A DNA stretch of 63,784 bases, counting the filler, from Collodictyon triciliatum (taxonomy: Eukaryota), in NCBI GenBank assembly GCA_043381765.1. It is 6 parts of 6 records of this genome, joined end to end, with 100 filler letters (N's around TTAATTAATTAA, not from the genome) between each part and the next. Parts side by side here need not be neighbours in the genome. Positions count along the whole stretch, not along the records: positions 11,940 to 23,778 come from JBHJMP010002299.1; 5 more parts are not named here. The stretch is one strand, 5' to 3'. The notes under the pieces are model-generated. The model was not told where the DNA came from, searched no databases, and saw nothing but the letters and a program-made list of their open reading frames with translations. A program made the translations under genes and the position numbers. Shown here in pieces: positions 1,388 to 55,058 of this stretch. Position 1 is the first letter of the stretch; each line of letters begins with the position of its first letter.

Positions 1388-1478
1388 CGCGACAAAACAA
1401 CCATAAAACAAAAACAAAAACAAAAACAAAAACAAAAACAAACAAAAACAGAGGCAAAAGACCAAACCAACTCCCGCA

Positions 1479-4187
1479 ATGAACCCGAGCAACAGCCTGG
1501 AAAGCGTCCAGAAAGTCAGGGCCACTGCAGACTGTGTCCTGCGCATCTCAGCCTGGCTTCAGCAGCGGCTGCCGGACGAACCTGCCGCAACACACGTCCA
1601 AACAGACAACCTCCTCTCGCGGCTCTTCTGGGCCGGCGCAGCAAAGCACAATCCCGGCGCACGAGAACGGCCGCAGTCCGGAAACACAGGAAGCGAGTCT
1701 CTCGCCCGCCTGGAACAGGCCATGGCCTCGGCCGACGCGCTTGGCAACGAAGCCGGCTGGTTTGTGCGGGCTGCTTTGCTTGCCGAGACCGACTGCGAGG
1801 CTGATTCTCCGCGCGTGCGCAGAGCCGACTCGCAGCAAGCGCTCCCCACCGCACCTTTGCCCTGCGTGGTTTTGCAGTCGCCCAGGCAGCTGCGTCGCCC
1901 GCACGAGTCTGCTCTGCGCTTTGCAGAGACTCTGCGCCTGGTGCGGCATCCAAACATCTGTGCCGTGTGGGCTCTGCAGACTTCGCTTGCGGGCGAGGCC
2001 GAGTGCGCGATGGTGGCTGCGCAGTCTCTGCGCGCGAGCGGCCTGCGCGCCTGCTTTGCGGACGGGAAAGGCCCGGACTCGCAGGCCGTTGCTCGGCTGT
2101 GTCTCGGGCTTGTGGACGGGGTTGCGTGTCTCGCGCGTCTCTTTGAGGGCGGGCAGATGAGTCTGCCTCCATCGTGCCCGTCGCCTGACTCGGTCGTGCT
2201 GCAGGGCGGGCTCTGCAAGATTGCCGATGCGGCTTTGGGCTCGTGCTGCCACATGCTGGGCCGGCCCTGCCTCACGGGCCTGCAGGCTGGTGAGTGGCCC
2301 GTGCATTGCTGCGACGAGGCCTTGCTGGCGAGTCCGACTCAGCCCCTGCTTTCCGGCCCTGTCCTGCTCAGGCTGCTTGCGTATTCGGTGGCGCGCCTTG
2401 TGATGGCTGTTCTGCGCGCAGCCTCTGCTTTCCTTGTCGGCGCAGACTCTCTCCATGGCGACATGCTGCGCGTTTGTGCGGCGAGTTTGGAGGACAGACC
2501 CGGGCTGGAGTTTGTTCGCTCGTCGCTGAGTCGCTGGCTGAGGGCCCAGGAGGAAGGCGAGTAAGTCCTTGTTGTCCAATGCATCCCGTTTTATTGTCTA
2601 TCCTCTCATCCATTGGTTACATGTTCACGAAACAAAGAACAAAACAAAGAAACAAAAAAAACCAACAAACCAACAAACAAACAAACAGAACAAACAGAAC
2701 AAACAAACAGAACAAACAAACAAACAAACAGAACAAACAGAACAAACAGAACAAACAGAACAAACAGAACAAACAGAACAAACAGAACAAACAGAACAAA
2801 CAGAACAAACAGAACAAACAGAACAAACAATCAGTGTGATGGTCTTTATCACGTCTTTTCTATGGATGAGTGTGGCATATAGGTACTGATTTGCATATGA
2901 TGTAGGGCGTATCCAAACGTGTCGGTGGGCGCCGCCACCAACGAGAACAGAATACACAGACCGGCAGAGGAACGTATTTCGAATGAGGTCAGCCAGATCC
3001 GCATGCAGGCGGCAAGAATCGAGTCTAAGCTTTCTCAGCTGCAACATCTGTTTATGCCCATCCCGGCTGCATATCCCCTCGTGGCCAGCGGAGGTGGCGA
3101 TGCCGCCATTCGATTGTGGAGTCCCATCGCAAAAGAGGCCGACGATTTGGCCGACCACAGCCCCTTCAGCGACACACACTGCCACGGAATCCTCAAAGAC
3201 ACCGAGACAAGCGGAGGCTCGATACTTGGGCTATGCAGAGCCGGCCCGGACCTGCTCGTCTCATGCGGCGATGACCGGCGCATTCGTGTGTGGGAAAGGC
3301 GAAAAGACGACCAGAAACCAAAGCAGCAGCCCGACAATCAGAGCGAGTCGAACCCTACGAGCTGCAGCCCGGCGCTGGAGTCCAGCATGCCGATGCAAGT
3401 GCGCCACAGAATGGACGGACACACAGGGTTTGTCAACAGCGTCGCCAGCATCGGACGAAAGAAAGCAGAATATCTCGTGGCCAGCGGCGCCGACGACGGC
3501 ACCATCAAGATCTGGGACGCGGGAAATGGGCGGCTGATTCAAAGTCTGGATGAAGGCGGAAATGGGGCGGTCCTCTCGGTCTGCAACGCCATGGACGGGG
3601 ACTCGCTGGTCGCAGCCGCAGGGTCATGCATCGGCTTATGGGACGTGGAGACGGGCCAGAGCAGAGTCCGTCTGCGCGGACACACAGGAGATGTCTACGG
3701 CGTGTGTGCGCTTCCCAGCGGAGCACTATCGCAATCGCTCGGCGCAGCAAACAGTGGACTCATCACAGACACCAACGTGGACCTGTGTTCTCTTCGTCTG
3801 GTGGCCTCGTGCAGTGGGGAGCCGTGCGGAGCAGATAACACAGTCCGGGTGTGGGACGTTGCATCGGGGCGCTCTGTAATCATCCTGCGTGGGCATGCGA
3901 GTTGGGTCTGCTGTGTTACGCATCTGGGCGAACACAGGATTGCCTCTGCAGGGTATGACAAGGTTCTTCGCTTATGGGATTTGCGCAAGACATCCGCCCC
4001 GCTGGCCAATCTCCACGGACACACCGGCTGGATTCACGCGCTCATGCCTTATTCTTGGGCCGGTCGTGCGTGGCTCGTCTCTGCTGCTCGGGACCATACC
4101 GTTCGCTTGTGGGATGCTGAATCGCAAACGCCTTTGGCCATATGGCGAGGCCATTCCCGCACCGTTCATGCGCTTACTGGGCTGTGA
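1479..4187 (+). CDS. Protein-kinase-like (probable pseudokinase) + coiled-coil + WD40 repeat protein, two exons (1479-2560, 2906-4187), 787 aa
   Basis: The first ORF's stop lies inside a perfect GTAAGT donor at 2561. The AG at 2904-2905, preceded by TACTGAT, joins it in frame to the WD40 ORF. Kinase remnants: LVRHPNICAV and CKIADAAL. Several GH...WD repeats. Confidence 0.8.
2629..2830. repeat. Intronic (AACAGAACA)n / (AAAC)n microsatellite
   Basis: Direct reading of the sequence. Confidence 0.95.
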
Positions 4188-4543
4188 TGGATGGGCGGTT
4201 GCTTCGGTGATTGTACAGCGCTCGCCTGATAAAAGATTTCATGGCGGGGATATGGCATATCTGTAATATGCGCGTTTCAATAGTTCTATGGTGTAATTCT
4301 TCTCTATATATCTATATCTCTTCCATTTGGCGGTTCATACGCATGTTGATTATTATTTTTTTTTTGGTATTTTTTGAAAGTGATTTTATTTTTGGTACTA
4401 TAGAGGGTTCTTGGTTTTGATAATACAGCCTTTGTGCCTTTTTATTTTCATAATCATTATTATTATATTTCTGTGGTTTTGCGCACAAAACTTTATCAGA
4501 CTTTTTCAAGTAGGTGTTTGTTCTTTCCCATTGTTTTGCGGCA

Positions 4544-8944: not shown

Positions 8945-11236
8945 CTAATCATCTTCCCAGCGAAACGAATAGACGATTCCGAGAGGCTCTTCATGGGCAG
9001 GATTTGCACCCAGCCTACTCGCAGAAATCAGAAACAGATTATCGTGCAAAGCCAACGACTGCCCAAAGGCCACGTACCCAGGCGTACTCGATTGCGCCGG
9101 GGAAATGGCGGAGCCAAACTTCCATGCCTCATCATCGGAAGATAATTTGAACGTGACAACAGGCCCGTCTCCTCTTGTCTCTGGCGTATTTAAGTCCTTC
9201 TCAGAGTCTGTAGCATCACTCCGACATCTGTACAAATTGTCCTCAGATATCTGGCAAGTTATTTCTGAACCAGCAGTTTCTTCATCTCCTTTGCTATTAT
9301 CACCATTATCACCATCATCGTCATCATCATCATCGTCGTCGTCATCCTCCTCCTCTTTATTGTAGTTTTCATGGTATTTGTCATCCAGTTGGTAATATAC
9401 GTCAGAAGGGCACGTAGAAACAACTAACTTCCCCCCGTGGATGGACATGGAGCAACCGAAATGCAGCCAAACGGACCGAGCAGGGAATCTTCTACTCCCC
9501 GGGTGGCCATCCATACCAAAGTTGAGCTGGATTGAGATGTTTTCAAGAGCTGTACTTGGTGGGTTTATGACTTGAGTCAGTGACATGGATGAGTCCGCCG
9601 GACGAACCTTGTATACTTGAATTTCACCGTGTCCACTTGGATACGCAATCATGAGCCAACGCCCATCGTTATCTGCGCCCAGAACAAGCCTCTCTTCTCC
9701 TGCATCGGCCTTTGAACTCGAAGGTGGGCTTTTCATTTCATCGGTGCGGGAACAGTCCAGCACCTGCGACACAGACCATTCATTTTGAACCCTATAGACA
9801 ATAACACGGTTTGGGTTGTGGATGGCCACTGCTATCCATTTCTTTGCACCAGCCATCGCATATCCAAATCTAGGACTGATTGAACTTTCACTACTTGATG
9901 TCTCCGCTTCCCTTTCGTGTCTGCTCTCCGCCGAGCTCTTTGGGGCGTTGATGGATGGATGTAATTTGATTGGGGTTTTCGGAAACCGTGGTTCTTGAGC
10001 AGCTTTTCCTTTAAAAATAAAGACAGCCCCGTTTCCTTTGTTATGTGATGGTGCTGATATCACCAAGACAGGCATCTGGTTCTCCTCTGGTGTGATAAAA
10101 ACCATAGCAGCCCCAAAGTCTCTATCTGGAGGGGACTGCCGTGACCTCAGCCCTTCGACCTTTCTCCAAAAACCAAGTGTGCTATCGCTCCCACCTGCAT
10201 TGAGTGCCTTCATCAACTTTCCGTGCTGCTCGTCGATTTTACTAACAACGGAAACATTCTTTCGAAAAGAGATAGAGTCTTCATTCTCATCATTCCCTTC
10301 ACCAACATCTGAACCTCCTTTTCCTTGTGACTTACAAACAGCGTGCTTCATACTCAGCGGATTTCCAAGAAGATCAAGTCTTTCCTGTGCTTGGTTCTTT
10401 TCATCCACTAAAATATGCTGCTCTCTGCCCGCATCTGCCTCCAATATACGCGAGAGCCTTGAGTTCTGGTTGGACAAATGATAGACGTGCACCAATCCGC
10501 GAGTAGAGGATTCATACATGGCATGGTCCGACACAACCACAAGCCACTTCTCATCTTCAGATATGCGCAATTGCGACCCAAACTGAGCCTTCCTGTGCCG
10601 ACCAGGATTCGAAAAGACTGTGTGCAGTTGAGGCGGATTTTCACGCGACTCTGTAAATGAGCGCATATATAAATAAACTCGGCCTCCGAGACATCGGGAT
10701 GGGGCGGATGAACACCCTGGCTGAGAAATCGCAATCCATGAGCGACTGAGTGCGACTTTGTGCCCGAGAAATCGACCAGAGACAGAGGACATGGACGAGT
10801 CTTTAAAGCCATCGGTCTTTGGCAGACTCTGTGCGTCTGATTCGGTTTGTGAAAGTCCGCGCGTGTTTTGGTCTTCCACTCGATTTGGCTGCACGTCACC
10901 TGCAATCAAGTGTTTTGTCGGGCGCTCGTAAAGGTCCAGATAGAGTGCCTCTGTTTGGGTGGGTTTGTCGTGTGCCTTTCGCAGTGGCTCGGGCTCTTTG
11001 CCTGGGGCGACGTTTTCTGGTTGGATTCGTGGGCTCAAGTTGGCGCGGACGGGTTCACCGTTGCGATGTTTGAGGATCGTGTCTTTCGTTGGAGGGAGAA
11101 ACTCAAAGTCTAAGGTGATGTTTGTCCACGATGAAGGCACGAGGGAGAGGAGGACAAGTCCCACAAGGACAGTCTGTTGGGCTCCGCAGGTTTGCTGGCG
11201 TCTTGTGCAAAAACATGTTCTTCTTTTTGTTGGCAT
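8945..11236 (-). CDS. Secreted or N-anchored FG-GAP-type seven-bladed beta-propeller protein, intronless, 763 aa
   Basis: Hydrophobic segment VLVGLVLLSLVP. About 7 FG...(G)xVY blades, e.g. DFGAAMVF..VLVISAPSHNKGNGAVFIF and AFGQSLALHDNLFLISA..GIVYSF. Confidence 0.75.
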   Translation of the reverse strand: MPTKRRTCFCTRRQQTCGAQQTVLVGLVLLSLVPSSWTNITLDFEFLPPTKDTILKHRNGEPVRANLSPRIQPENVAPGKEPEPLRKAHDKPTQTEALYLDLYERPTKHLIAGDVQPNRVEDQNTRGLSQTESDAQSLPKTDGFKDSSMSSVSGRFLGHKVALSRSWIAISQPGCSSAPSRCLGGRVYLYMRSFTESRENPPQLHTVFSNPGRHRKAQFGSQLRISEDEKWLVVVSDHAMYESSTRGLVHVYHLSNQNSRLSRILEADAGREQHILVDEKNQAQERLDLLGNPLSMKHAVCKSQGKGGSDVGEGNDENEDSISFRKNVSVVSKIDEQHGKLMKALNAGGSDSTLGFWRKVEGLRSRQSPPDRDFGAAMVFITPEENQMPVLVISAPSHNKGNGAVFIFKGKAAQEPRFPKTPIKLHPSINAPKSSAESRHEREAETSSSESSISPRFGYAMAGAKKWIAVAIHNPNRVIVYRVQNEWSVSQVLDCSRTDEMKSPPSSSKADAGEERLVLGADNDGRWLMIAYPSGHGEIQVYKVRPADSSMSLTQVINPPSTALENISIQLNFGMDGHPGSRRFPARSVWLHFGCSMSIHGGKLVVSTCPSDVYYQLDDKYHENYNKEEEDDDDDDDDDDDGDNGDNSKGDEETAGSEITCQISEDNLYRCRSDATDSEKDLNTPETRGDGPVVTFKLSSDDEAWKFGSAISPAQSSTPGYVAFGQSLALHDNLFLISASRLGANPAHEEPLGIVYSFRWEDD

Positions 11237-11839
11237 TCCTGGTAGTTGGTGAGAGATGTTCTAGGTCTTTGCTTCTTGCTTTATTTTATGTTCTTTTTTG
11301 TGGTGTTTTTGTTGCTTTGCTTTGTTTTTGTTTTTGTTTTTGTTTTTGTTTTTGTTTTTGTTTTTGTTTTTGTTTTTGTTTTTGTTGTTTTTGTTTTTTT
11401 CGTTATTTTTGTTTTGTTTTATTTTGGAGTTCGTGAGCCGCGATCTGCCGAGATGCGTCACAAGCCTAAGACCTTTCAGAGTTGAATTAGGATTGCTCAT
11501 TCCTTGTTAATAAGCACTTTATTATGCATAGATTTAAAAATGTATCAGTTTTAGTCAGAGAAATCTGTATTTAATCTAATAATAAGGTATATCTATATTT
11601 TCCATATATATTCTACTGTAGACTTCCTAGAACTGGAATTTGTTTTTGTCTGGCAACAGACAGTTTTTGCACGGATCTGTCTTTAAATAAAAAAATATAA
11701 GCAGAGCAGTAAGACAGAGAAAAGTAAAAAGACAAAGAAAAGTAAAAAGAAAAAGAAAAAGAAAAAGAAAAAGAAAAAGAAAAAGAAAAAGAAAAAGAAA
11801 AAGAAAAAGAAAAAGAAAAAGAAAAAGAAAAAGAAAAAG

Positions 11840-15150: not shown

Positions 15151-18093
15151 ATGAGATCTCAAGGCCCGCAGCGCCAGATTCTTCGTGCACTCGCTGGAGT
15201 CGTCTTGCTGTGGACTCTTTTTGCGTTGTGGGCAAAGGTCAAAGAATACAGCGTTACCCAATCAGCGATCAGCGAAGGTTCGCCGCACACTCTGGTTTCA
15301 TGAACCCAAGAAAAGATTCCCCAGTGACACAGCATTCAGTGCTGCCTTTTATTTTTATACATAACTGCGTAATTAAGGCGAATAATTAACATAATTAATT
15401 TGTTTAATTAAAAATATGAAGAATACATAACATGTAATTATGCAGCATTCAATAAACATAATAAAATGAAAACAAGATATAAAAAGATATAAGCAAGATA
15501 TAAAAAGATACACGCCAGATATACACCAGATATACGCCAGATATAAAAAATAGAAACAAGATACTTAAAAATATAAACAGTATATAAGCAATATATAAAC
15601 ACGATATAAACAAGGTACAAGCAATATAAAAAGCACACAAATCATTTCATATGAAAGGAAACAACACGCCACTTTTAAATCATGCAAACTATATATCATT
15701 TCTCTTTTGCTGCCATAATTTTTTTAAAGGATACCAAATATCGGGTCACTGTTAAATCAAAAAAAAAAAAAACCCTACTAAACAACCAGTGAGTGGCCGA
15801 GCTTTTGTCACAATCGTTGAAAGGGAGGATGATGTGTTAGCAGCTGAATTCTGGGTCCGTTCTGTCTATCAAAGTCATGGACGTAGTGCTCACCCGGTTT
15901 TGATTATCCCGACCGCAATATCAGAGGAATCCATAGTGCGATTAGAGTCTGTTCGTGCAGCAATTGTGACAGAGTCTATGCTCCAGGAGTATCTCCAACC
16001 CCCGAAGCAGTCTACAGGCAACACCAACAATAAGGATACCACCAAAAGTATCAATTCTAATCGAAGTTCTGAGAGCGAGAGCGATAAGCACCAGATATCT
16101 GGGTTCCCAGTAAGCTTTTCGAACTTGCGACTGGCTTGCAAGGATTATTCCAAGATTCATGGGAGCCAAAATTGCCCCTATTGGAGAGCTTTGGTGTTTT
16201 CACTAGGGAAATATCATACAATAGCATACAGCGACCCGAATATTATACTTCTTGGCAACCTATCGCATTTGATGAAGGGAAAGGATTCTTACCTACTCGG
16301 GCCATATGAAAAGGACATCACAATTCCATCTTTCTTTGTATGGAGAAAGTCTCATCAATCGAAGAGTGTTTTCTACAACTCCTTTAGACAGTTGGAAGAG
16401 GGTCTTTCAAAAAGAACCCCACAAAAAGATCCACTTACTCTGCTTGATGTTGCCATTCAATACAGTCTGTCCATAGAAACAGTACCGAAGGATGTTCCAT
16501 ACACATTGGAAAAACTGTCAGATTTTTCAAAAACACACCCAATTTCCAAAGTCCATCCCAAGGGCTTCATCATGTACTCTTGGGACAAAGTAAAGGGAGA
16601 TTCTCAATCTGGAAAGAGTTCGATATGCGGGCCAGAGCCGTACAGTCCGAGAGGAAAAGGCCTGGATGCAGCACTTTGGTCTTTATGGCATGATGTTGAC
16701 TCAATTTTAAATGGTCTGAACCATTGTAATGTCCTATCTTCTTTCCCTTCTCTTTTATTTATTTATTTATTTTTTAATATTTAGATTTGAGCTGTTATTT
16801 CTCCGAACCGTTTCGTCACTCCACTTTATGAAAACCATTAACTTTTTTTTAAAAAAATAAAAAAATATGCCATCTAGATGTCAGGGAACCTCTTGTAAAT
16901 GCGCAGGAAGAAAGCGACTGCCGTTATATTGCAGACAATCTACACGAACATAACTTCACCGCTGTTGTGTATAGTTTAGGATACGTAAGAAAGCTGAAAT
17001 GTTGATTAATGAATATATGATTATTCGCCTTGTGCCCTTTGATTGTTTCGAACTTTATTTTTTTTTAATATCAGAATATCAATCGCGTGGTGCATATGAA
17101 GACTATGATTGGAAAGCTTTCAAATTTTAAAGAATGCCACAAAATCATACTTGTTTGGAATACGATGCAAGAGCCCTCCCCCTCATTTCTGGGATTATGT
17201 ACTCTATTCATCACGAATCATGCCATGCTTAATTTTTAATTCCAAGTAACCATGCGTCGACAATTTTTTTTTCGTCGTATGGTGGGTTTTTATATAAGAG
17301 AAAATATGACCAGACTTGTAACATCAAATTGCCATTTCCAGATGAAAAATATCCGAATCTTGAGTCGAAGCTGGTTGTTAAGGCGCAAGATTATGCGAGC
17401 CCCAATAACAGATTCCGACCCTTCAAAGAAATCGAAACAAGGGCTGTTCTTGTGATGAACGACAACGTTCTTCTCAAAGACGATGACATTCCTCTCATAT
17501 TCCGGACCTCAATTCAACTCCGAAAAACCCTTCTCGGAATCGACGGAGAACTTCACCACGATTTCAACGGTAGTTGGAAGATTTTGGAGAGTAAAGGAAA
17601 GACTTTCGAATATTCCATAGTATTGCCTCATGTATTAGCCTTTGACAGGGAATATCTATACAACTACACATGCAAGATGAACAAGGGTATTCGGAAATAC
17701 GTCGATTCGGCCGGTTATTGTGAAGATATAGCACTCAACATGCTAATTGCTGATGCTACTAAGATTCCTCCAATGTTGGTAGAGGCTCGTCCTACGATAT
17801 ACAATGAGGCTGATGGGGTTGATGTCCAAACCTTAAAAAAAGTCCGTGTCCAATGTCTCAATTCGATTAATGACCTATATAATTCAAAAATGCCACTCAA
17901 AACCACATCCAATATGATTCGCCCATATTTTTCAAACAATGTGGAGAGATTTGTGATGAAATCAGATGGGTCTATTGAGAACGTTTATGTTTACTACGCA
18001 CACATGGCCAATTCTGCAAGTGTCTACGTGTTGATTTCCTGCATCGTAATCTACTACGTTTTTAAGAAATCGAACCACCCAATCTTTCGCTGA
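15151..18093 (+). CDS. Membrane glycosyltransferase with fused GT8-like and GT64 (EXTL2/EPC1-like) domains, five exons
   Basis: N-terminal TM in exon 1. GT8-like RAFVTIV...VFSLGKYHTIAYSDPNIILLGNLSHL. GT64 motifs FTAVVYS, KIILVWN, SPNNRFRPF, CEDIALNMLIA, RVQCLN. C-terminal TM. Exon phases are compatible. Confidence 0.8.
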
Positions 18094-18496: not shown

Positions 18497-19139
18497 CTAA
18501 TGACGCGTTTTGAGCTCTACTCTTGTAGAAACACGCTTCGATGGTCTTTTCGCAGTCTCCGCAGCCTTATCTATGGGTAATTGCCAACACGGTCGAGGGC
18601 TGAGCCAATTAGAAAAACCGGACTCAAAAAACAACTGGTGATTGTGGTGTTGCACAAACTAGAAGGCAGCTTGAGCCTGTTGGGGCGACGTTTATCAACC
18701 CTAACAAGTGGAACCCCTACCATACTTTTTTGCCTGCCACAAAATGTTGTAACCACAGGCTCGTTCAAAAGTATCGAGAAACTCTCGATTGTCATTTATT
18801 TCTTGCAGGCTTCAAAGCGATTCGGTCTTTTCTACCAACGAGTGTTTGAAGCCTCGAGCCAAGGAGTCACGCATGTTATCTTGCCTTTCCTTTATCCCCT
18901 TTCTGCCCACTGACTACCGTGAGCACTTTGTCGGTGAATGAAGTTATGGATATTCACAACACGCACTTGCTGCATCCGGTCTCTTTTCAGTGATCTCTTT
19001 CCTCCCCTCCCAACATCTGCTCATCTCTGCTCGTGTGCCTCGTCAATATCAGAACCACGCTGTTCTTTCCATCTCCCCTTTCCCACATTAACTGGCTACC
19101 AATCCTGAGCCTTATCAAACGGAAGCTCAAGCTCTGCAT
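18497..19139 (-). CDS. Hypothetical small protein (~85 aa), four exons
   Basis: Three phase-1 GT-AG introns join MQSLSFRLIRLRI|DRMQQVRVVNIHNFIHRQSAH|EINDNREFLDTFERACGYNILWQAKKY|DKAAETAKRPSKRVSTRVELKTRH*. No family recognised. Confidence 0.45.
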
Positions 19140-19513
19140 CTTGGCTCTTTGAGTCTGGTGTAGAATCACTGAGCGAATACCCCTTTAATCGGTTCTGACG
19201 AGCAGCGTCGGCATAAATGATGTCATTCGGCCTCGTTTTCCTTCCAGTTTCCCGCAATTATCAGACAGGAATTGCGAATCCGTTTTCTGTTGTGATCAAA
19301 CGCGGATTGACAGATCATCGCTGTTCATCCAAACGAGCTTTTCTATTTGCCTTTGCCTTGGTGTTTCTGTTTGTGTTCGTCTTTGTCCTCGTGTTTGTCT
19401 TTCGGGTGAACTAACTAGTTTCACACTTTATGAGCGATCTGCGGATAAAAAACGTTTTCTGCGTTTCTTTTTCTAACCCCGTGGAAATATGAAGGTTTGG
19501 TGGAAGCTTTGCG

Positions 19514-20019
19514 ATGACCCGACAAGGACGTGTTCCCTCGCAACTCATGCGCTTCCTTGTGCTTTGCTTTGCGCTTCACTTGCTCTCTCTGACTGCAGAG
19601 TGTGCGCCTCGTCTTCGTGCGAAGAAGGATGGAAGCAGCGCTCAAGATGAAGCAGAGCACGCTAATCTACTTGATATCGAACTCAAACGTGCTGAGGTAT
19701 GTCATACCATGGTTCGCTTAGTAGCCTTTTGGCATAGCGCAGATGGAGAAGAAAGAGCTTTGCAACGAACCTCGCGTTCAAAGCTTGTATTAACGATGCT
19801 AATTTCGTTTTTATTGTGAACCCTGGATAGGTGGATGGCCAAGGTATTTTCTCTTCGAATAATAAATATATAAATACCAAACTACTCATTCCTTGCACAA
19901 TAAAGGATTGGTTTTGATTCATTTTGATTCCATAATACAGGAAGCGAGACCTCCGATGTTGAAAGTATTCGCCCTACGCGTAAAAGCTTTACTTTTCATT
20001 TACTTTTTTCCTGCGTCAT

Positions 20020-20111
<92 letters not shown>

Positions 20112-22882
20112 AGTTAATATGAGGATTTACTAAATCTCCTTGGAAAAAAAAAAGCCAACTTTAGTGCATCATATTGGGCGGACCCTGAAGAGCCAACTGG
20201 TGACCATGAAGGTAGCTATCATGACATTGTGCGGATTACCGAACCATTGATAGTTTTTCAAAAAATCAATGAATATAACTTTTTCTTTTCAGAGACAACT
20301 ATTTCAACGCAACGCCCGCCTCGCCCATCTCCCACCAGACGTGATTTTAATCATGATACCACATACATGTTAAAGCGTAATACAATTTGCATTATATTTA
20401 AACATACATATGACAGAGCGCTTCAATGTGACACGACGCCCGCCTCGCCCATCACCCACCAGACGTGATTTTAATCATGATACCACATACATGTTAAAGC
20501 GTAATACGATTTGCATTATATTTAAACATGCATATAACAGAGCGCTTCAATGTGACACGACGCCCGCCTCGCCCATCACCCACCAGACGTGATTTTAATC
20601 ATGATACCACATACATGTTAAAGCGTAATAGAATTTGCATTATATTTAAACATACATATGACAGAGCGCTTCAATGTGACACGACGCCCGCCTCGCCCAT
20701 CGCCTTCTAGAAGTGAATTTCGCTTATCGCTCTGCATACTTTTCTTTCTTTTCATTATTTCTATATATATCTGTGAAGCCAAATCGTAGAACTTCATTAA
20801 CTATATATATTTAGAATCGATAAAAATAACACGTCGTCCAATGCGCTCTTCATTCTCGAGAAGTCAGTTTTCATTGCGCCTACACTATTTGTTCAATATA
20901 TGTCACTAAAAATTGAGAGCCTTTTTTTTTCGGCACAGGATCTTCCAAACCTACCCGATTCTCCAACATGCCATCGCTTCCTTCGAGAAGTGAATTCATA
21001 TGGAAAATAATGATTTTTTTATATTTTTTTGAATACCAGTGGATGTGTCCCATTTACATGGTATACATTTCATGACCAATCATTCGAAATAATGGTGGCT
21101 TCATTCTGTTTCAGACCCACTCAACCCAACTCGATTCCCGAACATGCCGTCTCTTCCGTCAAAGAGTATAACTTGCTTCACAAAAACAGATATACTAATT
21201 AGGAATCAACTTCATATACACTTTTAACAAATGCATACCATTCTAGACCCCTTCAATGTTACTCGGTTCCCGAACATGCCGTCTCTTCCATCAAAGAGTA
21301 TAACTTGCTTCACAAAAACAGATATACTAATTAGGAATCAACTTCATATACACTTTTAACAAATGCATATCATCCAGACCCACTCAACCCAACTCGGTTC
21401 CCGAACATGCCGTCTCTGCGTTCTAGAAGTATATTTTCCAACCACCAAGAAACCTTCTTTTTACTGAATGCCCCAACTAGAATCCCGATATTTTTTCGTT
21501 GCTCATATATGTCCTTTAATTTGTAAACATATTTTTAACTTATTGATTTTTCTTTTTTCAATTTAAAAGACCCTTTCGACATGACCCGCCTTCCACCAAG
21601 GAGATCTCCATCACGAAGTGAGCCAATCATGATATTACATAACCACATCGCAATCGTATCTGTCTACATGACCAACTTTTTCCTTTTTGATTTGATTCCT
21701 GCTGAGGAACATATGCGACCAAGCCAACCATCTGCAAACTGCCTTCATTAGGACCTAGGAAGCCAACAAAGACCCGACAGCCGGAGAGGAGTCCAAGTCA
21801 AACACGTAAGAGTCATTAAACCGGCACATAAACATCATATGGGGCACAGTGAAATGCGCTGTTTCTTGTTCCACACCTGGAGGATACCCCACTTGTTAAT
21901 TTTAATTGAAGCCGTGATGCCCGCGGAATTATCATTTCCTGCTACTTGCAGTCACAGAAATAACCAGGCATTTTTGTTTGTATTTTTACCTTAGGAGAGC
22001 CTCCACAAATGATTCAGATGACTTTGAAAGGAGAGGTGGCCACTTTCAACCGAGATGAATTTATTCGCCATGTTTCCCAGGCATCAAAAGTTGCGCACAG
22101 CCAGATTGTGATTGTTTCCATCACGAACGTCTCCGACCGACTCATGAAAACCTCAAACAACACATCACCGAATGCCCGCGTTTTGGTGATGTTTGAAGTC
22201 CACGGACACAAGTCACAGTCTTCCCAGGCGGCTGCAGAAAGTGTCATGTCTGCCGTAGAGAAGGGACACCCGGTAATCCGTCTTTTTACTCTATTGCATA
22301 CTGCGTGATATTTCCGAAAAGATAAACTTATCAGTCTCGAATCCCATGCAACTTTCGCAATCAAAACTAGGACTTGGTGAATATCAATTTGATTCATGCG
22401 CAAATGAACGATTCCGATCCGGTCGTATACGTGCCCGACGTGAGTAAACGCGCCCCTCAAAACCTGCTGATGCATCACATCCCCGCTTTGCCCTTACATC
22501 GTCTCCCTCATTCGTAGTTTGAGTATGATGACAATGAGGATGACGACAACGACGAGGACGAAGGCGATGACGATGATGATGACGATGAAGACAAAGCGGA
22601 AGGTTTCAAAAAAGTCATCATCGTGGTTGCTGCGCTCGGGGCAGTTTTCATCTTGATTCCACTGGCCTATTTCTCCTTCCGTCCGCGACCCAGTAGCACA
22701 AAAGGTTATCTATACACCCTTCCACTGCCTCGTCACCATTATCGTCATCATCATCAAGAAACTGATACATGCCATCAACCCCAGAGTCATTGCTCGACGT
22801 TGAAGCCACGGGAGAAATGGAGGCTCAGCAAACAGAAAGAGACGCCCCCGAGAACGCAGTCTTCGAGATGCGTGAGCTCTGA
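19514..22882 (+). CDS. Type I membrane protein: signal peptide, mini-exon-encoded Pro/Arg/Ser/Thr stalk, SEA-like domain, acidic tract, TM, short tail (~19 exons)
   Basis: Signal MRFLVLCFALHLLSLTAEC. Mini-exons 19831-21805. SEA-like IQMTLKGEVATFNRDEF...IVIVSITN...VLVMFEV. TM VIIVVAALGAVFILIPLAYFSF. Stop TGA 22880-22882. Confidence 0.8.
20293..20712 (+). repeat. 124-bp tandem repeat (48-nt exon + 76-nt intron), about 3.4 copies
   Basis: GTGATTTTAATCATG recurs at 20341, 20465 and 20589. Confidence 0.95.
21115..21428 (+). repeat. ~132-bp tandem repeat (51-nt exon + intron), about 2.4 copies
   Basis: GTATAACTTGCTTCAC recurs at 21166 and 21298; three exon copies. Confidence 0.92.
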
Positions 22883-22937
22883 ACAGATGAACCCATGGCG
22901 GGGACATAAAGCAACCCTTACAACCAAAGCCGGTTGT

Positions 22938-23665
22938 TTATAAACCCACGCCACGAGGCAGAGCCCACGGAGGCGGATTGCGCAAAGCCAGCCGCGCGTG
23001 CGCTTGTTCAGCCTCGCGCTCTTCCCGCAGCCTTCTCTGCTCGGCTCTCCACTGGTCGTCTTCCTTCATGCAGCAGCGCTTGTACTGCCGCAAAGACCCG
23101 CAGTGGCACGGCCGCCGGTCGCTCCCACAACATGCCTTGAACTTGAGTCCAGACCCACACGGGCAGAGTTGGCTGCGTCGCGCGTCAAGCGGCTCCTCCG
23201 GCAGCGGCGGAAGGACGGGCTGTTCTCCGCGCTGGAGACTGCAGTTTAAGGAAGAAGAAAAAAAAAGGCATGAAAAAAAAAAAAGGAAAGAAAAAGGACA
23301 GGCACGAACGGTCTGATGCTGGCGATCAGCAGCAAAGTTGCTTACGTGGCAGGCTGATTGCGAAGCTGGCGATCGAGCTGCTCCGCTGTGTATGTGCCCG
23401 GCAAGGCGATTCCGTCTGGATTGAAGGCTGCGTATGCGCTCCACTCGCCTGCTTTCCTTGTCCCGAGATTGCGGAATGGAAGGACTAGGCATGTCACAAG
23501 AAAGAAGACAGCGACAAAGTCCGCCCACACAGAAACGCAGCCGCAGAGGAGCCACGCAGAAAAAGCTGTTCGATGGGTGTTGATCCAGCTGACGACCTGT
23601 GACCCGAGGCTGCTTGATGGGCTGGAGGACGCGGTCCGCGCGTTTTGTGGTGTTTGTTGCGGCAT
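22938..23665 (-). CDS. SAYSD1: SAYSvFN-domain protein (SAYSD1 homolog) with two C-terminal SEC-C metal-binding motifs, two exons
   Basis: TM hairpin then NLGTRKAGEWSAYAAFNPDGIALPGTYTAEQLDRQLR. A phase-2 GTAAGC...CAG intron joins it in frame to CPCGSGLKFKACC and CHCGSLRQYKRCC. Confidence 0.85.
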
Positions 23666-23696
23666 AGCTGACTGAAGCCGTTGTACTCGTATTTTG

Positions 23697-23770
<74 letters not shown>

Positions 23771-23778
23771 TTTTTTTT

Positions 23779-23878
23779 NNNNNNNNNNNNNNNNNNNNNN
23801 NNNNNNNNNNNNNNNNNNNNNNTTAATTAATTAANNNNNNNNNNNNNNNNNNNNNNNNNNNNNNNNNNNNNNNNNNNN
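23779..23878. other. Assembly linker
   Basis: 44N + TTAATTAATTAA + 44N. Confidence 0.97.
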
Positions 23879-33695: not shown

Positions 33696-35714
33696 TCACA
33701 AAGGAAAGCCCAGGCGCTGCTTGAGAAAGGGCACAAAGCGGTGAATCTTGTTCTTGGACTTTGGCAGCAACATCGAGCGCCGAACGCCGATGTCCCACAT
33801 CCTCTTGACATCCTTTTCCGAGCGGGACAGCATTCTCCCTGCCGTGTCTCCCATCCTCTTAACGCGAAAGTCGTTCCAGAATCCATACCGGTAGTGATAA
33901 AGAGTCAAGTGTGCGGACGTAAACACCGACGCGTACGAGTTCCTCAATCCAATATCTTTGTGCAGGCGAACTGCATGAGGCCCATATCCCTGGACTCCCG
34001 CAACATACTTTGGCTGGAACGTGGGCTTCGAGAGCCACCGAAAGGTCTTTGTGACATAGTGACACACCTCAAAGAGAAGCTTCGATGGCGGCAGCGCTCC
34101 TTGTCCACACGGGCCAAAGACCAACCACGGAGACGAAATGTATTCCTTGGTCGCATATTTCTCTGTGAGGAGCTCACGCACCGTTTCATAGGAGCCTCCA
34201 GGGACAAGATATTCGTCCACATCGATGAACGTCATCCACTTTGTAAATGCCCCGAAGCGGTGCGTGCAATCCGTTAGTGCCTCTGTTTGTGCATGTCGGT
34301 GCGGCCAGGCTACCCGCACGATGTATCTGTCGTAGTTTCTGATGACTTGCTCCATGACCCTGTCTGGTTCCACGTTGTTGTCATAGAGGACAAATCGAGC
34401 ATATCCCATCATAATGTGGTATTCTATCCAGGGCTGCAGATGTACGCCTTCGTTTTTTACGATGCTGCATATTGTCATCCTCACGTTCCCCATGTAGCTG
34501 TCTATGGACGGTACTATAATACGAAGAAGAAATGGGAGGGTATATATTTTGAAATCATAGGTCATTCTCATAACAGTGGTCGGCCTCATCAAATCTGCGT
34601 TTTGGGGAATGGGACAAAACGAAAAGCTTATGTCGCCAACTCTTGCTACTCTCTGCTCTGTGGCGTTTGTGAGTGGATTTTCAAAGACACAATAAATCTG
34701 ATTGCACTGGTTGGGGAAAATCTTTCTTGGAAAAAAGAATCCTACCACAATATACTCACTATTTTTACTGTCAAGAAATACTGACTTGATTTCAAACGGC
34801 CTGTGTGGCGTTATGACCAATCTAGACAGCATTTTGTTTACGCTTGCTAGCAGCTGTGTTCCTTCGCCTCTATCTTTTATCTTCTCCTTGTTTCTCGTGA
34901 GTAGACTCTTTGGCTTATTGCTATCACTGCTGACATTCGAAGGTATTTCAATCTTGACATCCCATTCGTTCATCGAGCTTCCTGAACAATCAGTACCTCC
35001 AGGCATGCTGCACATGCCTTTTGTAGGGGAGAGACATATGATTTGCTGTCTTTTGTACTCCTGCTCATAATCCGGGAAGGGGATACCATTTATCACCTTG
35101 CGGCGTTGTTTAGGTGATATGGAAAATAGTCCGGCTTCCAGTACTTGCTTGTGGAAACGACAAAGCATATCTGAATTACATGGCAGGGAAACTGTCGGGA
35201 ATTCTATCATAAACTCGACTTTCTGTGTGCAGTGCTTCGCACACGAGGGAATGTACGAACCGTTGACTATGTTTTGCTTTGCAACTGAGAAAGTGGTATC
35301 ATATCCTGTAATATTTGTTTTGAAGTTGAAGGTCACTGGTGTCGCTGGTTCGGCTGTGTCTGTGCATATGATAAAATATAAACAAAAAGAGAAATGCTGA
35401 CGCTCTGTAAGCGGATTGCCTGATGAAGAATTATGTTTATGTTTTATGTTTTATGTTTTATGTTTTATGTTTTATGTTTTATGTTTTATGTTTTATGTTT
35501 TATGTTTTATGTTTTATGTTTTATGTTTTATGTTTTATGTTTTATGTTTTATGTTTATGTTTATGTTTATGTTTATGTTTATGTTTATGTTTATGTTTAT
35601 GTTTATGTTTATGTTTATGTTTCAAGAGCAAACCTTCACTCTCGATATTGTTGAGATCAGCAGGAAGGGGCACGGTGTTTCTCATGATGAACATGATAAC
35701 CCCACAGTGGAACG
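33696..35714 (-). CDS. Glycosyltransferase family 92 / DUF23 (GT-A fold) protein, 5' truncated at segment end
   Basis: ICSIVKNEGVHLQPWIEYH..GYARFVLYDN; QTEALTDC; WMTFIDVDEYLVP; LYHY. Confidence 0.85.
35433..35622. repeat. Compound (TTTTATG)n to (TTTATG)n microsatellite in an intron
   Basis: Direct reading of the sequence. Confidence 0.95.
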
Positions 35715-43700: not shown

Positions 43701-45298
43701 CTGAAGCAGAAGCTAATGAGTTTTCTGGGCAAGATTGACATATCCTCTGTGCCAAGAGAGATCCTGCGCTGCTTCTTTCAACTATTACAGATGATTGGAT
43801 ATAAAATTACACACGAGGATAAATGAAATGCCTCATCCAAAAAAAATATAGTTTCAAGAGAAATTAATATCAGGATAAAAAAAAAAAGACGGAAGGAATT
43901 ATGTGAATATCAAATGAATATAAACTATGCTTCCTAATAAGGCGATGAATCTATTTTATAAGAACTGCACCGAGAACTCGATTGCCGGAGCACCTTGGAC
44001 ATTCTTTGGCGGAGTTTGGAGCGGTTCCATTTTGGCAAGGGATACACCCAAATCCATCAAAACGAGTAACCTTTTCAAGAGGAAATGACAAATAAATAAA
44101 ACACAATCTTTGTCTTCATTCGTTTCAAATGAAACAAAAGCATAGTCTAATTTGTTAGTAGAGTTTAGATTTTACTTCATTTAGGGAAAAAAAATTGGTC
44201 ATATATGCAGGATGTATTTGTGAGTAGCCGAAAACTTTGAAATATTATGGCGGTCCTGTTTCTTTTTTTAAAAAAAAAAATTGATAGGAAAGTAATGTTT
44301 AGAATTATATAATAGACACCGTATTGACTGGACAAGCCACACAAGTCTTTGAGGTGGTCTGGTAAAATCCTGACAAGCAGACACAGCTCAGTCCTATAAA
44401 AATCAAAATAGATTGACAGACTACCCCACTGAGATGTTCAATCTGTCATTCGTCCATAAGCATATATACACATATCACACAAATAGGAGAAAAGTAGGAA
44501 ATTCATTAAAAATGCATACCATCAGCAGATGGGCTTGTGTTTGTTGGGCACGTCTAAACGATATCATTTGGAAAAAGAAAGATAATTTTACTTTAAGTAT
44601 TCATGTGATTATGTGTACAGTGGACATTTAGAATAATTTGTTTGCTTGCTTGCTTGTTTGTTTGTTTGTTTGTTTGTTTGTTTGTTTGTTTGTTTGTTTG
44701 TTTGTTTGTTTGTTTGTTTGTTTGTTTGTTTGTTTGTTTGTTTGTTTGTTTGTTTGTTTGTTTGTTTGTTTGTTTGTTTGTTTGTTTGTTTGTTTGTTTG
44801 TTTGTTTGTTTGTTTGTTTGTTTGTTTGTTTGTTTGTTTGTTTGTTTGTTTGTTTGTTTGTTTGTTTGTTTGTTTGCATAAAAATAAAAGAATTTGAAGA
44901 TATAGAGAAAAGTGACACATTTCGGAGAACAAGAGAATAATCGAGCAAGAGTTTTAAAATAGAGTTTTAAAATAGTTAAAAAAGTTAACGTGTAATAGAT
45001 ACAAAACATATGACTTAACATGCACAACAGAGACAAAAATGGGGATCATATTTCGTGCTCATCTCAAAAAGAAAGGGGAAGCATAGCATTTCCAAAATAA
45101 TTGCAATTGTAATACAGCTTCGATAATTCAGTAAACCTTGCATGTTAAGTCAGAAATATCCAGGTAGAAGCCAGTCCCAAGATATGAGCAGCTTGAAATG
45201 CGCGTTAATCCAAAAGTATGTCCAAAATAGCTGCATAACACAACTGCGCCCAATACACACGCCACAGCAGCAGCGACCGGGGAAGTTGTGTGACGCAT
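37790..45298 (-). CDS. TMEM67: Meckelin (ciliary transition-zone protein MKS3), many exons
   Basis: Signal peptide and YLDISDLTC; Cys-rich ectodomain; FFIIDWEKPR; VPVWRTLFVANELNEL; HGFYLHGKSVHSFADTNM; C-terminus NLSNKTFVDNRFLI*. Confidence 0.95.
44638..44876. repeat. (TTTG)n microsatellite in a meckelin intron
   Basis: Direct reading of the sequence. Confidence 0.97.
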
Positions 45299-45331: not shown

Positions 45332-45653
<322 letters not shown>

Positions 45654-46541
45654 ACGAAAAAGAACAGTAGAATGGACTATAGCGAATCTTGATAAATATT
45701 TTTCTCGGCCAGGCGCAAGAATGAATTAAAAAAAGAAAAAGAAAACCAAGGGTAATCAAGAAAGTGTTACACGGCAAAAGTCATGCTGCAAAATATAAAA
45801 CAAAATAAAACACTGGAAGAAAAAAAGAATAAGAAAACAGGAGTAAAATAAACAAAGGCTGTCCAGCTTTCAGACAACAGTCTCATCAAAGAGTGCAAGA
45901 GAAAGATAAAAAAAAAAAAAAAAGCAGGAGTAAAACTGCGGCCATTCTCTCCCAATGCAAGCAGAGAATATTCACTCCAGTCCGCGATTATTGCTGACGC
46001 ACCAAACGAAGGCACCTCCGAAGAGCGCAGCGGGTCTTTCTGGCTGGGTAATTGCACTGGCCAGACTTTGTGAGATCGGCGCAGATTTAAATTTTTGAAT
46101 ATTGAACACTTCCACATGAGGTATGATTGCGCTGTGGATTTACGCTTGGAACACATCACCCACTCTTTGTGGAACTTTGCGCTTGTGCTGCGCTGGGTTC
46201 GCCCACCCCACAGGCAACAGCGCGAAAGGACAGAGTCTGGGAGACGTGGCGATATTGTCTGCGATGATGGCGACAGTCCTAGTTCTAGTATGGGAATGGA
46301 GGGATTTTGCTGGACAGGGAAAGGTCAGATAAGCTTCTCTTTTTCTTTTTTCCAGTCAGTTGACTAATGGTTCACAAATCAGAACTAAGCGTCAAGAACA
46401 AGACATGCCGAAGCATCGTCGTCAGAATCCAGAGTGTGTGACACGGTGACAGGGCGTGAGGAAAGAGAAGCACAAACAAGGCTGTGGCTATTGTGGAGAG
46501 TGACGAAAGAATGTTTCTGAGAATCCGCAAGCTGAGCTTAT

Positions 46542-54756: not shown

Positions 54757-55058
54757 CCTCTCCCTGTACCACACCGTTATCCAGACACATAAGCACACAA
54801 CCACATAAACAAACACGCACATGCCACCCGATCCGCGACGCATCCAAAAGCCCACCACACACGCATGACAACAAAACACGCCACCTGTCACCCGCGACTA
54901 CACAGATCCCAACCAACATGGAGAATTTCTGCCACTCCCTTTTTTTTTTTTTTTCATCCTTCCTTCCCTCGCTCCCTCTGCGCGCCTTCGCGTGAGCCGT
55001 GCGCTGACCGCGGCGATCTGCCCCGCATAGGGAAGAGACAGGGCAGGCAGCAGCGGGG

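What the first reader, a model, noticed from the sequence alone, without database searches (positions are those of the whole stretch)
19831..21805. Micro-exon cassette array: 13 consecutive symmetric phase-1 mini-exons build the stalk of a surface protein
Seen: a 13-nt exon (19831-19843) switches the gene to phase 1. It is followed by 13 GT-AG-flanked exons that are all multiples of 3: 24, 57, 48, 48, 48, 48, 48, 51, 51, 51, 51, 48 and 54 nt. They start at 19941, 20155, 20293, 20417, 20541, 20665, 20815, 20939, 21115, 21247, 21378, 21570 and 21752. Most encode related peptides (QRFNVTRRPPRPSPTR, KSIKITRRPMRSSFSR, PLNPTRFPNMPSLPSK, PFDMTRLPPRRSPSR) between a signal peptide and a SEA-like domain + TM. 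Known: Schistosoma micro-exon genes use symmetric exons to diversify secreted and surface proteins by exon skipping. Inference: any subset can be skipped in frame, so this may be a combinatorial surface-variation system in a microbial eukaryote. The ORF track does not show it.
Basis: partly seen in the sequence, partly recalled or inferred. Interest (0 to 1): 0.8.

Follow-up and report, generated by a model that had tools for sequence, protein, structure and literature searches.

The report
Expressed mini-exon array encoding surface-protein repeats
A real, transcribed gene of an unidentified freshwater eukaryote builds the repeat region of a membrane glycoprotein from a row of tiny in-frame exons that arose by copying exon-plus-intron units, an architecture already known from schistosome mucins and spider silk; whether the exons are shuffled by skipping is still open.

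Summary
The mini-exon array is real. RNA contigs from two studies carry GT..AG joints at 14 of the 18 modelled introns, and a loose end supports a 15th. The 13-nt exon is in the mRNA.

There are two corrections. The "24-nt" exon is 39 nt in RNA (19941-19979). Exon 20293-20340 was not seen in RNA: one contig joins 20211 directly to 20417.

The 19-exon model gives a 489-aa protein: signal peptide, acidic segment, 181-aa Pro/Arg/Ser/Thr-rich repeat region, orphan globular domain, acidic tract, transmembrane helix and tail. "SEA-like" is not supported.

The repeat exons lie in 124-bp and 132-bp exon-plus-intron tandem units, whose introns are as alike as the exons or more so. My reading is growth by unequal crossing-over, which only symmetric exons survive, so symmetry alone does not show a skipping system.

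Any subset could be skipped in frame: 0 of 105 possible junctions makes a stop. Only one skip joint was seen, in a different strain, so it may be a copy-number difference.

The closest known analogues are SmPoMuc mucin genes and spider Flag silk. This is a new variant of a known kind, of moderate interest.

The parts
19495..19513 (+). 5' UTR after a probable splice acceptor (AG at 19493-19494, pyrimidine run upstream)
   Evidence: the X1 and X2 contigs fit the window only from 19493 and are preceded by letters absent from the window (0 matches with up to 3 mismatches). Sequence read.
19514..19696 (+). Exon 1, 183 nt: start codon, signal-peptide-like N-terminus, start of the acidic segment
   Evidence: hydrophobic window at aa 10-14; covered by X1 and X2 contigs, with the joint at 19696/19698.
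19831..19843 (+). 13-nt micro-exon that shifts the gene to phase 1
   Evidence: AG/GT borders. tables 5 and 5c: the letters between the two sides of the joint equal the middle of this exon, in X1 and X2.
19941..19979 (+).
   Evidence: joint 19979>20155, GT..AG, in X1 and X2.
20023..20109 (.). (ATT)29 microsatellite inside intron 3
20155..20211 (+). 57-nt symmetric exon (acidic, with an NFS sequon)
   Evidence: acceptor 20155 used in X1 and X2; donor 20211 used in X2.
20293..20340 (+). 48-nt repeat exon 1 (TTISTQRPPRPSPTR). Good splice sites, but not seen in RNA contigs
   Evidence: the X2 joint 20211>20417 leaves it out. The DNA contig of X3 at 20171-20321 shows that the exon exists in DNA of a freshwater strain.
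20312..20701 (.). 124-bp exon-plus-intron tandem unit, 3.1 copies, 96% matches
   Evidence: introns are 95-99% alike.
20417..20464 (+). 48-nt repeat exon 2 (RFNVTRRPPRPSPTR)
   Evidence: acceptor used in X2.
20541..20588 (+). 48-nt repeat exon 3, identical to exon 2
   Evidence: joint 20588>20665 in X2.
20665..20712 (+). 48-nt repeat exon 4
   Evidence: joints 20588>20665 (X2) and 20712>20815 (X1, X2).
20815..20862 (+). 48-nt repeat exon 5
   Evidence: joints 20712>20815 and 20862>20939.
20939..20989 (+). 51-nt repeat exon 6
   Evidence: joints 20862>20939 and 20989>21115 (X2).
21112..21417 (.). 132-bp exon-plus-intron tandem unit, 2.3 copies, 89% matches
   Evidence: introns differ at 4 of 80 positions, exons at 8 of 51.
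21115..21165 (+). 51-nt repeat exon 7
   Evidence: joint 20989>21115. The loose end before 21247 equals this exon's last 11 letters.
21247..21297 (+). 51-nt repeat exon 8 (carries an NVT sequon where its neighbours have NPT)
   Evidence: joint 21297>21378 (X1, X2)..
21378..21428 (+). 51-nt repeat exon 9
   Evidence: joints 21297>21378 and 21428>21570 (X1, X2).
21570..21617 (+). 48-nt repeat exon 10
   Evidence: joints 21428>21570 and 21617>21752 (X1, X2, X8).
21752..21805 (+). 54-nt repeat exon 11, the last symmetric exon
   Evidence: joints 21617>21752 and 21805>21995 (X1, X2, X8).
21995..22272 (+). 278-nt exon: most of an orphan globular domain. Returns the frame to phase 0
   Evidence: joints in X1, X2 and X8; no family, no real homologue, no fold match.
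22371..22439 (+). 69-nt exon: end of the globular domain
   Evidence: joints in X1, X2 and X8.
22518..22704 (+). 187-nt exon: Asp/Glu tract and the transmembrane segment (about aa 424-446)
   Evidence: hydropathy up to 2.78; joints in X1, X2 and X8.
22785..22928 (+). Last exon: cytoplasmic tail, stop codon at 22881-22883, 3' UTR up to the poly(A) site
   Evidence: table 7: 19 A's follow 22928 in X1, while the window continues with other letters.

Best explanation
This is an expressed 19-exon gene (19514-22883, + strand) for a type I membrane glycoprotein of 489 aa.

Protein layout, from the N-terminus:
- a signal peptide;
- a short acidic segment;
- a 181-aa very basic Pro/Arg/Ser/Thr-rich region made of 11 related 16-18-residue units, four of them with N-x-T sequons;
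- a globular domain of about 115 aa with no known relatives;
- an Asp/Glu tract;
- one transmembrane helix;
- a 43-aa tail.

Each repeat unit is one 48-54-nt phase 1-1 exon with its own short intron. I infer that the array grew by unequal crossing-over or replication slippage of exon-plus-intron units of 124-132 bp, with some patchy conversion between units. Only exons that are multiples of three can be amplified this way without breaking the frame. The uniform symmetry is therefore a filter imposed by how the array grows, not a sign of a splicing programme. In the RNA seen, the exons are joined mainly one after another. Variation most likely arises at the DNA level, as differences in unit number between strains, and changes the length and glycan load of the distal extracellular region.

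Shown: exons, splice junctions, poly(A) site, tandem units, protein layout.
Inferred: membrane topology, glycosylation, the growth mechanism, and that splicing is mostly constitutive.
For: - Splice sites and phases.
- RNA joints at 14 of 18 introns, plus one loose-end support, in contigs of two studies (X1 and X2; X8), and a poly(A) tail after 22928.
- Tandem units of 124 bp (3.1 copies, 96% matches) and 132 bp (2.3 copies, 89%).
- Introns as alike as exons or more so. For 20293 vs 20417, exons differ at 13/48 and introns at 3/76 (Fisher p = 5e-4). For 21115 vs 21247, 8/51 vs 4/80 (p = 0.06). For 20417 vs 20541, 0/48 vs 4/76. All.
- The 124-bp block starts 19 nt inside exon 20293, as expected for crossing-over within the shared 3' halves of the exons.
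- Exon 21247 differs from its two neighbours mainly in a 10-nt patch, part of which it shares with the 20417-type exons.
- Protein features: hydrophobic N-terminus; one window with hydropathy above 1.6 at aa 422-432; repeat region P 23%, R 21%, S 14%, T 10%, pI 12; 9 sequons.
- The same architecture, with introns more homogenised than exons, is described for SmPoMuc, and through that paper for spider silk genes (PMC2576457, passages read).
Against: - One RNA contig (X2) joins 20211 to 20417 and omits exon 20293-20340. This could be true exon skipping.
- Contigs keep only the dominant paths and collapse the identical exons 20417 and 20541. They therefore cannot show that splicing is constitutive or count the units.
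- Strain-level differences in copy number are not demonstrated. No DNA and RNA from one strain were compared.
- Signal peptide, topology and glycosylation rest on simple sequence rules, not on a dedicated predictor or an experiment.
- The exon-versus-intron contrast rests on three pairs, and only one of them is significant.
- No paralogue or orthologue was available to test the growth model. No genome is held, two metagenome scans found nothing, and there is no paralogue in the window.
Confidence: 0.6

Rival explanations
1. One reading: a combinatorial cassette system. The symmetric mini-exons are skipped in varying subsets, so that one gene yields many surface isoforms that differ in repeat number and type.
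For: - All 13 exons between the 13-nt exon and exon 21995 are phase 1-1, and 0 of 105 possible junction pairs gives a stop.
- One exon-skipping joint with GT..AG ends (20211>20417) occurs in an X2 contig of depth 13.9.
- Exon 20293 has a good acceptor, yet a contig joins across it.
- Schistosome micro-exon genes use such exons in this way (PMC4350168, passages read).
Against: - Of the 15 joints listed, 13 link neighbouring exons and only 1 skips an exon.
- That run differs from the window at several exon positions, so a unit-number difference in its DNA explains the joint equally well.
- Introns are 76-190 nt. From general knowledge, not tested here, genes with short introns are read intron by intron and show intron retention more often than exon skipping.
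- Symmetry is already explained by tandem unit duplication.
Confidence: 0.2
2. Polyprotein precursor. The Pro/Arg-rich units are released by proteolysis at the basic residues as short cationic peptides, in the manner of proline-rich antimicrobial peptide precursors. That comparison is recalled from memory and was not tested.
For: - Eleven 16-18-residue units have 21% Arg and 23% Pro and a pI of 12.
- Each unit ends in Arg or Lys, except the last, which ends in Thr.
Against: - The protein keeps a C-terminal transmembrane segment and a globular domain.
- No spacer or processing motif was tested.
- No homology to any peptide precursor was found: the only sequence search possible was on the globular domain, and it found no real relative.
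Confidence: 0.05
3. The array is not part of a functional gene: chance AG/GT-flanked open segments, or a decaying pseudogene.
For: No homologue of the domain exists outside this locus, and exon 20293 is unseen in RNA.
Against: - Spliced, polyadenylated RNA with the predicted joints was found in runs of two studies.
- The reading frame is open over 19 exons.
- Exon and intron GC contents contrast strongly.
Confidence: 0.03

Closest known systems
Schistosoma mansoni polymorphic mucins (SmPoMuc)
   Same: The N-terminal repeat region of a secreted or surface mucin-like protein is encoded by a small exon (27 bp) that is repeated in tandem together with its flanking intron. The intronic parts are more than 93% alike and homogenised more than the exons. 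Unit number varies, up to about 20. Exon loss is seen in some transcripts (PMC2576457, passages read).
   Different: - Units there are about 1 kb and separated by microsatellites; here they are 124-132 bp.
- Exons there are 27 bp; here 48-54 nt.
- SmPoMuc is a multigene family of a parasite with demonstrated polymorphism; here there is one gene and no polymorphism data.
- Homology could not be tested: no SmPoMuc sequence was used.
- This protein is very Arg-rich and has a transmembrane anchor.
Spider flagelliform (Flag) silk gene
   Same: Protein repeats correspond to genomic tandem repeats made of exons and introns. There is concerted evolution, with introns more homogenised than exons. This is stated in PMC2576457; the original paper was not read.
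   Different: It is a secreted structural fibre protein of an animal with far larger units, and has no signal-repeat-domain-transmembrane layout.
Schistosome micro-exon genes (MEGs)
   Same: Very small symmetric exons follow a signal-peptide exon, and skipping keeps the frame (PMC4350168, passages; abstract of 10.1101/2023.06.21.545858 in the listing).
   Different: - MEGs have most of the coding sequence in micro-exons of 3-81 bp with long introns (up to 5 kb), encode small secreted proteins, and are reported as restricted to platyhelminths.
- Here about 45% of the coding sequence is in exons of 57 nt or less, introns are 76-190 nt, the product is a 489-aa membrane protein, and skipping is not shown.
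Vertebrate membrane mucins such as MUC1 (recalled)
   Same: The order of parts is the same: signal peptide, Pro/Ser/Thr-rich tandem repeats, a juxtamembrane globular domain, a transmembrane helix and a short tail.
   Different: - Mucin repeats lie in one large exon (abstract of PMC13345508 in the listing).
- The domain here has no Pfam SEA match.
- The repeats here are strongly basic.
Troponin T 5' mini-exon cassettes
   Same: [quoted passage not shown]
   Different: It is an intracellular muscle protein. The exons are not tandem exon-plus-intron copies, and combinatorial use is demonstrated there but not here.

Membership tests
Schistosome micro-exon genes (MEG) | Most of the coding region is made of very small symmetric exons (3-81 bp) | tested here: not met
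   Fourteen of 19 exons are 57 nt or shorter, and 13 of them are symmetric. Together they hold about 655 of the roughly 1470 coding nucleotides, about 45% (exon lengths).
Schistosome micro-exon genes (MEG) | Signal peptide; small secreted product | tested here: not met
   The N-terminus is signal-peptide-like, but the product is 489 aa with one transmembrane segment.
Schistosome micro-exon genes (MEG) | Long introns between the micro-exons (up to 5 kb) | tested here: not met
   Introns are 76-190 nt.
Schistosome micro-exon genes (MEG) | Isoforms produced by exon skipping | tested here: inconclusive
   One skip joint among the 15 listed, in a run of another strain.
Schistosome micro-exon genes (MEG) | Sequence membership of one of the MEG families; platyhelminth origin | not tested
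   No MEG sequence was compared, and the lineage of the window was not identified.
Exon-plus-intron tandem-repeat genes (SmPoMuc / Flag silk type architecture) | Each protein repeat is one exon, and exon plus intron is repeated in tandem in the DNA | tested here: met
   the junctions are in RNA.
Exon-plus-intron tandem-repeat genes (SmPoMuc / Flag silk type architecture) | Introns homogenised as much as the exons or more | tested here: met
   exon vs intron mismatches are 13/48 vs 3/76, 8/51 vs 4/80 and 0/48 vs 4/76. Two of three pairs have more mismatches in the exon, and one of these is significant.
Exon-plus-intron tandem-repeat genes (SmPoMuc / Flag silk type architecture) | Unit number differs between individuals or strains | tested here: inconclusive
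   The X2 contig lacks one unit, but skipping and copy-number difference cannot be told apart.
Exon-plus-intron tandem-repeat genes (SmPoMuc / Flag silk type architecture) | Multigene family with recombination between members | not testable with these tools
   No genome is held, there is no paralogue in the window, and two metagenome scans were empty.
SEA domain (PF01390) | Match to the Pfam model | tested here: not met
   0 families at E <= 0.1 for the 92-aa domain exon.
SEA domain (PF01390) | SEA-type alpha/beta fold | tested here: inconclusive
   - Single-sequence model with pLDDT 62 and element order E-E-H-E-H-E-H.
- Foldseek against the PDB gave 0 matches at E <= 0.001.
- In the protein atlas a SEA cluster appears only at rank 7 with score 0.81, a lead only.
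- The last 23 residues of the domain lie in another exon and could not be included.
SEA domain (PF01390) | Autoproteolysis motif (recalled) | not tested
   The motif is recalled from memory and was not searched with any tool.

The most novel reading that the evidence does not exclude
A free-living freshwater eukaryote of a poorly sampled lineage uses this array as a true cassette system. Stochastic or regulated skipping of any of about a dozen interchangeable phase-1 mini-exons, on top of rapid gain and loss of units in the DNA, would give each cell or clone a different cationic glycoprotein coat. That would be micro-exon-style variation outside parasitic flatworms. It may be coupled to spliced-leader trans-splicing and to an antisense transcript over the array.
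Probability: 0.15. Interest if true: 0.75.

Novelty: new variant of a known kind. Interest (0 to 1): 0.42.

Why it matters
- The locus is an RNA-verified case of a 13-nt micro-exon and eleven tandem exon-plus-intron units of only 124-132 bp. That is far more compact than the roughly 1-kb units of SmPoMuc, and it sits in an organism whose proteins have almost no database relatives.
- It gives a clean natural example of how repeat proteins can lengthen by copying whole exon-intron modules, and of why such arrays end up uniformly symmetric.
- Such genes are invisible to ORF-based annotation, so surface-protein repertoires of protists or small freshwater eukaryotes may be under-called.
- If skipping were shown, the locus would extend micro-exon-type variation beyond platyhelminth parasites.

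Tried and rejected
- **Whole-genome search for paralogues:** no genome is held for this window.
- **JGI metagenome contigs:** a protein-pattern scan with the domain exon matched 210 stretches, none confirmed. A degenerate DNA pattern of the 124-bp-unit exon plus donor gave 0 matches.
- **HMMER of the 92-aa domain exon against 1.84 billion representatives:** 3 hits.
  - One is the same locus (99 aa, 99% identical, from a 571-bp contig).
  - The other two are giant proteins. I looked at one, P0003, which is a bacterial Big_9/cadherin-like adhesin. Its match is about 31 bits per copy, spans the border between two adhesin repeats and is multiplied by near-identical copies, so I reject it as spurious.
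  - P0002 (7520 aa, 18 stretches, same query range and identity) was not inspected. I assume it is the same kind of match.
- **Structure:** PDB sequence search found nothing below E = 1. Foldseek on the low-confidence model gave 0 matches at E <= 0.001.
- **Lineage:**
  - The 771-aa neighbour has 1 relative (31% identity, a transcriptome protein without an organism name).
  - The GT64 neighbour gave no word-index hits in 'longer' or 'near' lengths.
  - Rfam and tRNA scans of the window were empty.
- **The 23-letter leader:** not in the window, and none of three overlapping pieces of it occurs in the paper library.
- **Bacterial promoter/terminator scan of 19000-19600:** 0 sites, and not relevant to a eukaryote.
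- **Literature:** searches for the same architecture in protists or free-living organisms listed nothing relevant (0 papers; 35 papers held the terms, 12 listed, none on such an array). Supplementary files were not consulted.
- **Parts of the array without RNA cover:** the bin 20292-20415 has depth 0 in X1 and 0.11 in X2. I do not use this as evidence of absence.
Full report
**What is in the sequence**

The window is eukaryotic, and no genome is held for it.

- Exon 1 (183 nt) is in phase 0.
- The 13-nt exon 19831-19843 moves the frame to phase 1.
- The next 13 exons are all multiples of three and open in that phase.
- Four further exons (21995-22272, 22371-22439, 22518-22704, 22785-22883) complete an open frame that ends in a stop codon.
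- Exon GC is 0.40-0.65 and intron GC 0.15-0.54.

**RNA evidence**

One run search listed 17 runs, all with small shares of the stretch's words. I laid four of them: X1 and X2 (one study), X8 (a freshwater metatranscriptome from another study) and X3 (a freshwater metagenome).

X1 and X2 are cDNA on three grounds:
- They carry GT..AG joints exactly at the predicted introns.
- X1 has a run of 19 A's after 22928, where the window continues with other letters.
- Some loose ends look like the reverse complement of a template-switch oligo. That identification is recalled, not tested.

Joints confirm 14 of the 18 modelled introns:

| Introns | Runs |
|---|---|
| The two introns flanking the 13-nt exon (one joint with the exon's inner letters between its sides) | X1, X2 |
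| 19980-20154 | X1, X2 |
| 20589-20664 | X2 |
| 20713-20814 | X1, X2 |
| 20863-20938 | X2 |
| 20990-21114 | X2 |
| 21298-21377 | X1, X2 |
| 21429-21569 | X1, X2 |
| 21618-21751, 21806-21994, 22273-22370, 22440-22517, 22705-22784 | X1, X2, X8 |

Intron 21166-21246 is supported by an 11-letter loose end before 21247 that equals the end of exon 21115-21165.

- The exon at 19941 ends at 19979 in both X1 and X2, so it is 39 nt, not 24.
- Introns 20212-20292, 20341-20416 and 20465-20540 have no joint. One X2 contig joins 20211 to 20417 and omits exon 20293-20340.

Exons 20417 and 20541 are identical, so contigs cannot count them. An X3 DNA contig covers 20171-20321 with one differing letter, so that exon does exist in DNA of a freshwater strain.

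**The protein**

The revised model gives 489 aa:

| Part | Residues / detail |
|---|---|
| Hydrophobic, signal-peptide-like N-terminus | start of the protein |
| Acidic segment | to about aa 98 |
| Repeat region | aa 99-279: P 23%, R 21%, S 14%, T 10%, pI 12; 11 related units of 16-18 residues; NVT sequons at aa 117, 133, 149 and 215 |
| Globular part | aa 281-395 |
| Asp/Glu tract | between the globular part and the membrane segment |
| Strongly hydrophobic segment (the only other window above 1.6) | about aa 424-446 |
| Tail | 43 aa |

The repeats are therefore the distal part of the ectodomain, and the globular domain lies next to the membrane.

The globular domain has no identifiable relatives:
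- No Pfam family at E <= 0.1.
- No PDB sequence relative below E = 1.
- Among 1.84 billion representatives, the only real match is the same locus.
- The bacterial adhesin hit that I inspected (P0003) is an artefact of repeats. The other, P0002, was not inspected.
- A single-sequence model has pLDDT 62 with mixed strands and helices and no significant fold match.
- A SEA cluster appears only as a weak atlas lead, rank 7 with score 0.81.

"SEA-like" is therefore unproven.

**How the array arose**

Tandem Repeats Finder reports a 124-bp unit (20312-20701, 3.1 copies, 96% matches) and a 132-bp unit (21112-21417, 2.3 copies, 89%). Each unit is one exon plus one intron.

| Pair of units | Exon mismatches | Intron mismatches | Fisher p |
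|---|---|---|---|
| 20293 vs 20417 | 13/48 | 3/76 | 5e-4 |
| 21115 vs 21247 | 8/51 | 4/80 | 0.06 |
| 20417 vs 20541 | 0/48 | 4/76 | 0.16 |

(All.)

- Exon mismatches cluster in the 5' halves of the exons.
- The 124-bp block begins 19 nt inside exon 20293. This is expected if crossing-over took place in the shared 3' halves.
- Exon 21247 differs from both neighbours mostly in a 10-nt patch that it partly shares with the 20417-type exons. This suggests patchy conversion, and it turns NPT into the sequon NVT.

I read this as growth by unequal crossing-over of exon-intron modules. Only exons that are multiples of three can be amplified without breaking the frame, so symmetry is expected without any splicing programme.

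**Skipping**

Evidence that skipping is actually used is thin. Of the 15 joints listed:
- 13 link neighbouring exons;
- 1 skips an exon (X2 only);
- 1 (21175>21239, ends CT..AC) is not a sense-strand splice.

X1 and X2 differ from the window by about 1-1.5% in the exons, so the skip may reflect one unit fewer in that strain's DNA. Contigs also drop rare isoforms. The question stays open, and I give combinatorial skipping about 0.2.

**Comparison with known systems**

- **SmPoMuc mucin genes of Schistosoma mansoni.** A 27-bp exon and its intron form genomic tandem repeats of about 1 kb, up to about 20 copies. The introns are more than 93% alike and more homogenised than the exons. The authors note the same architecture in spider silk genes (PMC2576457, passages read). 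This is the closest analogue I found.
- **Schistosome micro-exon genes.** They share small symmetric exons after a signal peptide (PMC4350168, passages; abstract of 10.1101/2023.06.21.545858 in the listing). This gene fails their other features: the share of the coding sequence in micro-exons, long introns, and a small secreted product.
- **Prior description.** Searches for the same thing in protists or free-living organisms found nothing relevant. Supplementary files were not seen.

**Surroundings**

- No paralogue lies in the window.
- Neighbours include a GT64 glycosyltransferase ORF 1.4 kb upstream, a GT92 ORF, a WD40 ORF and a Sel1-repeat ORF in a 67% GC island.
- The lineage was not identified.
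- Near-identical DNA and spliced RNA occur in freshwater samples of two studies, X3 and X8.

**Verdict**

The interpretation as a combinatorial variation system is possible but unsupported. The architecture is a compact new variant of a known kind.

Noticed in passing
window 19463-19513: The X1 and X2 mRNA contigs fit the window only from 19493. Before that they carry the same foreign letters (23 in X2, and the last 8 of these in X1), which are absent from the whole 63.8-kb window. An AG at 19493-19494 follows a pyrimidine run, and the upstream ATG at 19489-19491 would be removed. This may be spliced-leader trans-splicing or a distant 5' exon.
   Followed up: partly
window 20843-21390: There are hints of an antisense transcript over the array. 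X2 has a joint 21175>21239 with ends CT..AC, which is GT..AG on the minus strand, inside a sense intron. Short X2 contigs cover that intron, and X2 depth is highest at 21036-21283. Loose ends behind 20843 (X1) and 21390 (X2) look like a reverse-complemented template-switch oligo; that identification is recalled, not tested.
   Followed up: no
window 54001-56700 and 1400-4200: High-GC islands (0.67 and about 0.57) lie in a window that is otherwise about 0.38 GC. They hold long single ORFs with Sel1 repeats (55008-56531) and WD40 repeats (2901-4187). They could be GC-rich genes, isochore-like structure or foreign DNA; this was not examined.
   Followed up: no
window 15756-18093 and 33696-35450: Two glycosyltransferase ORFs lie near the putative glycoprotein gene. 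The GT64 ORF (Pfam E = 1e-32) ends 1.4 kb upstream on the same strand. The GT92 ORF (E = 4e-18) is 11 kb downstream on the minus strand. Nothing beyond proximity links them to the gene.
   Followed up: no
window 22891-23822, minus strand: A convergent neighbour gene has an ORF with paired Cys-rich motifs. Its transcript and that of the mini-exon gene are merged in one 1529-nt X2 contig that runs past 23000, so their 3' ends abut or overlap.
   Followed up: no
whole window, e.g. 20023-20109, 44637-44876, 45334-45654, 35431-35622: Perfect microsatellites are very dense (27 arrays with score >= 150, including (ATT)29 inside intron 3 of the gene). The ORF listing also shows several runs of N, for example near 12.9-13.4 kb and 48.6-49.1 kb.
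   Followed up: no
window 8945-11260, minus strand: A 771-aa single-exon ORF has weak FG-GAP / beta-propeller signals. It has only one database relative (31% identity, a transcriptome protein), which suggests a poorly sampled lineage.
   Followed up: partly
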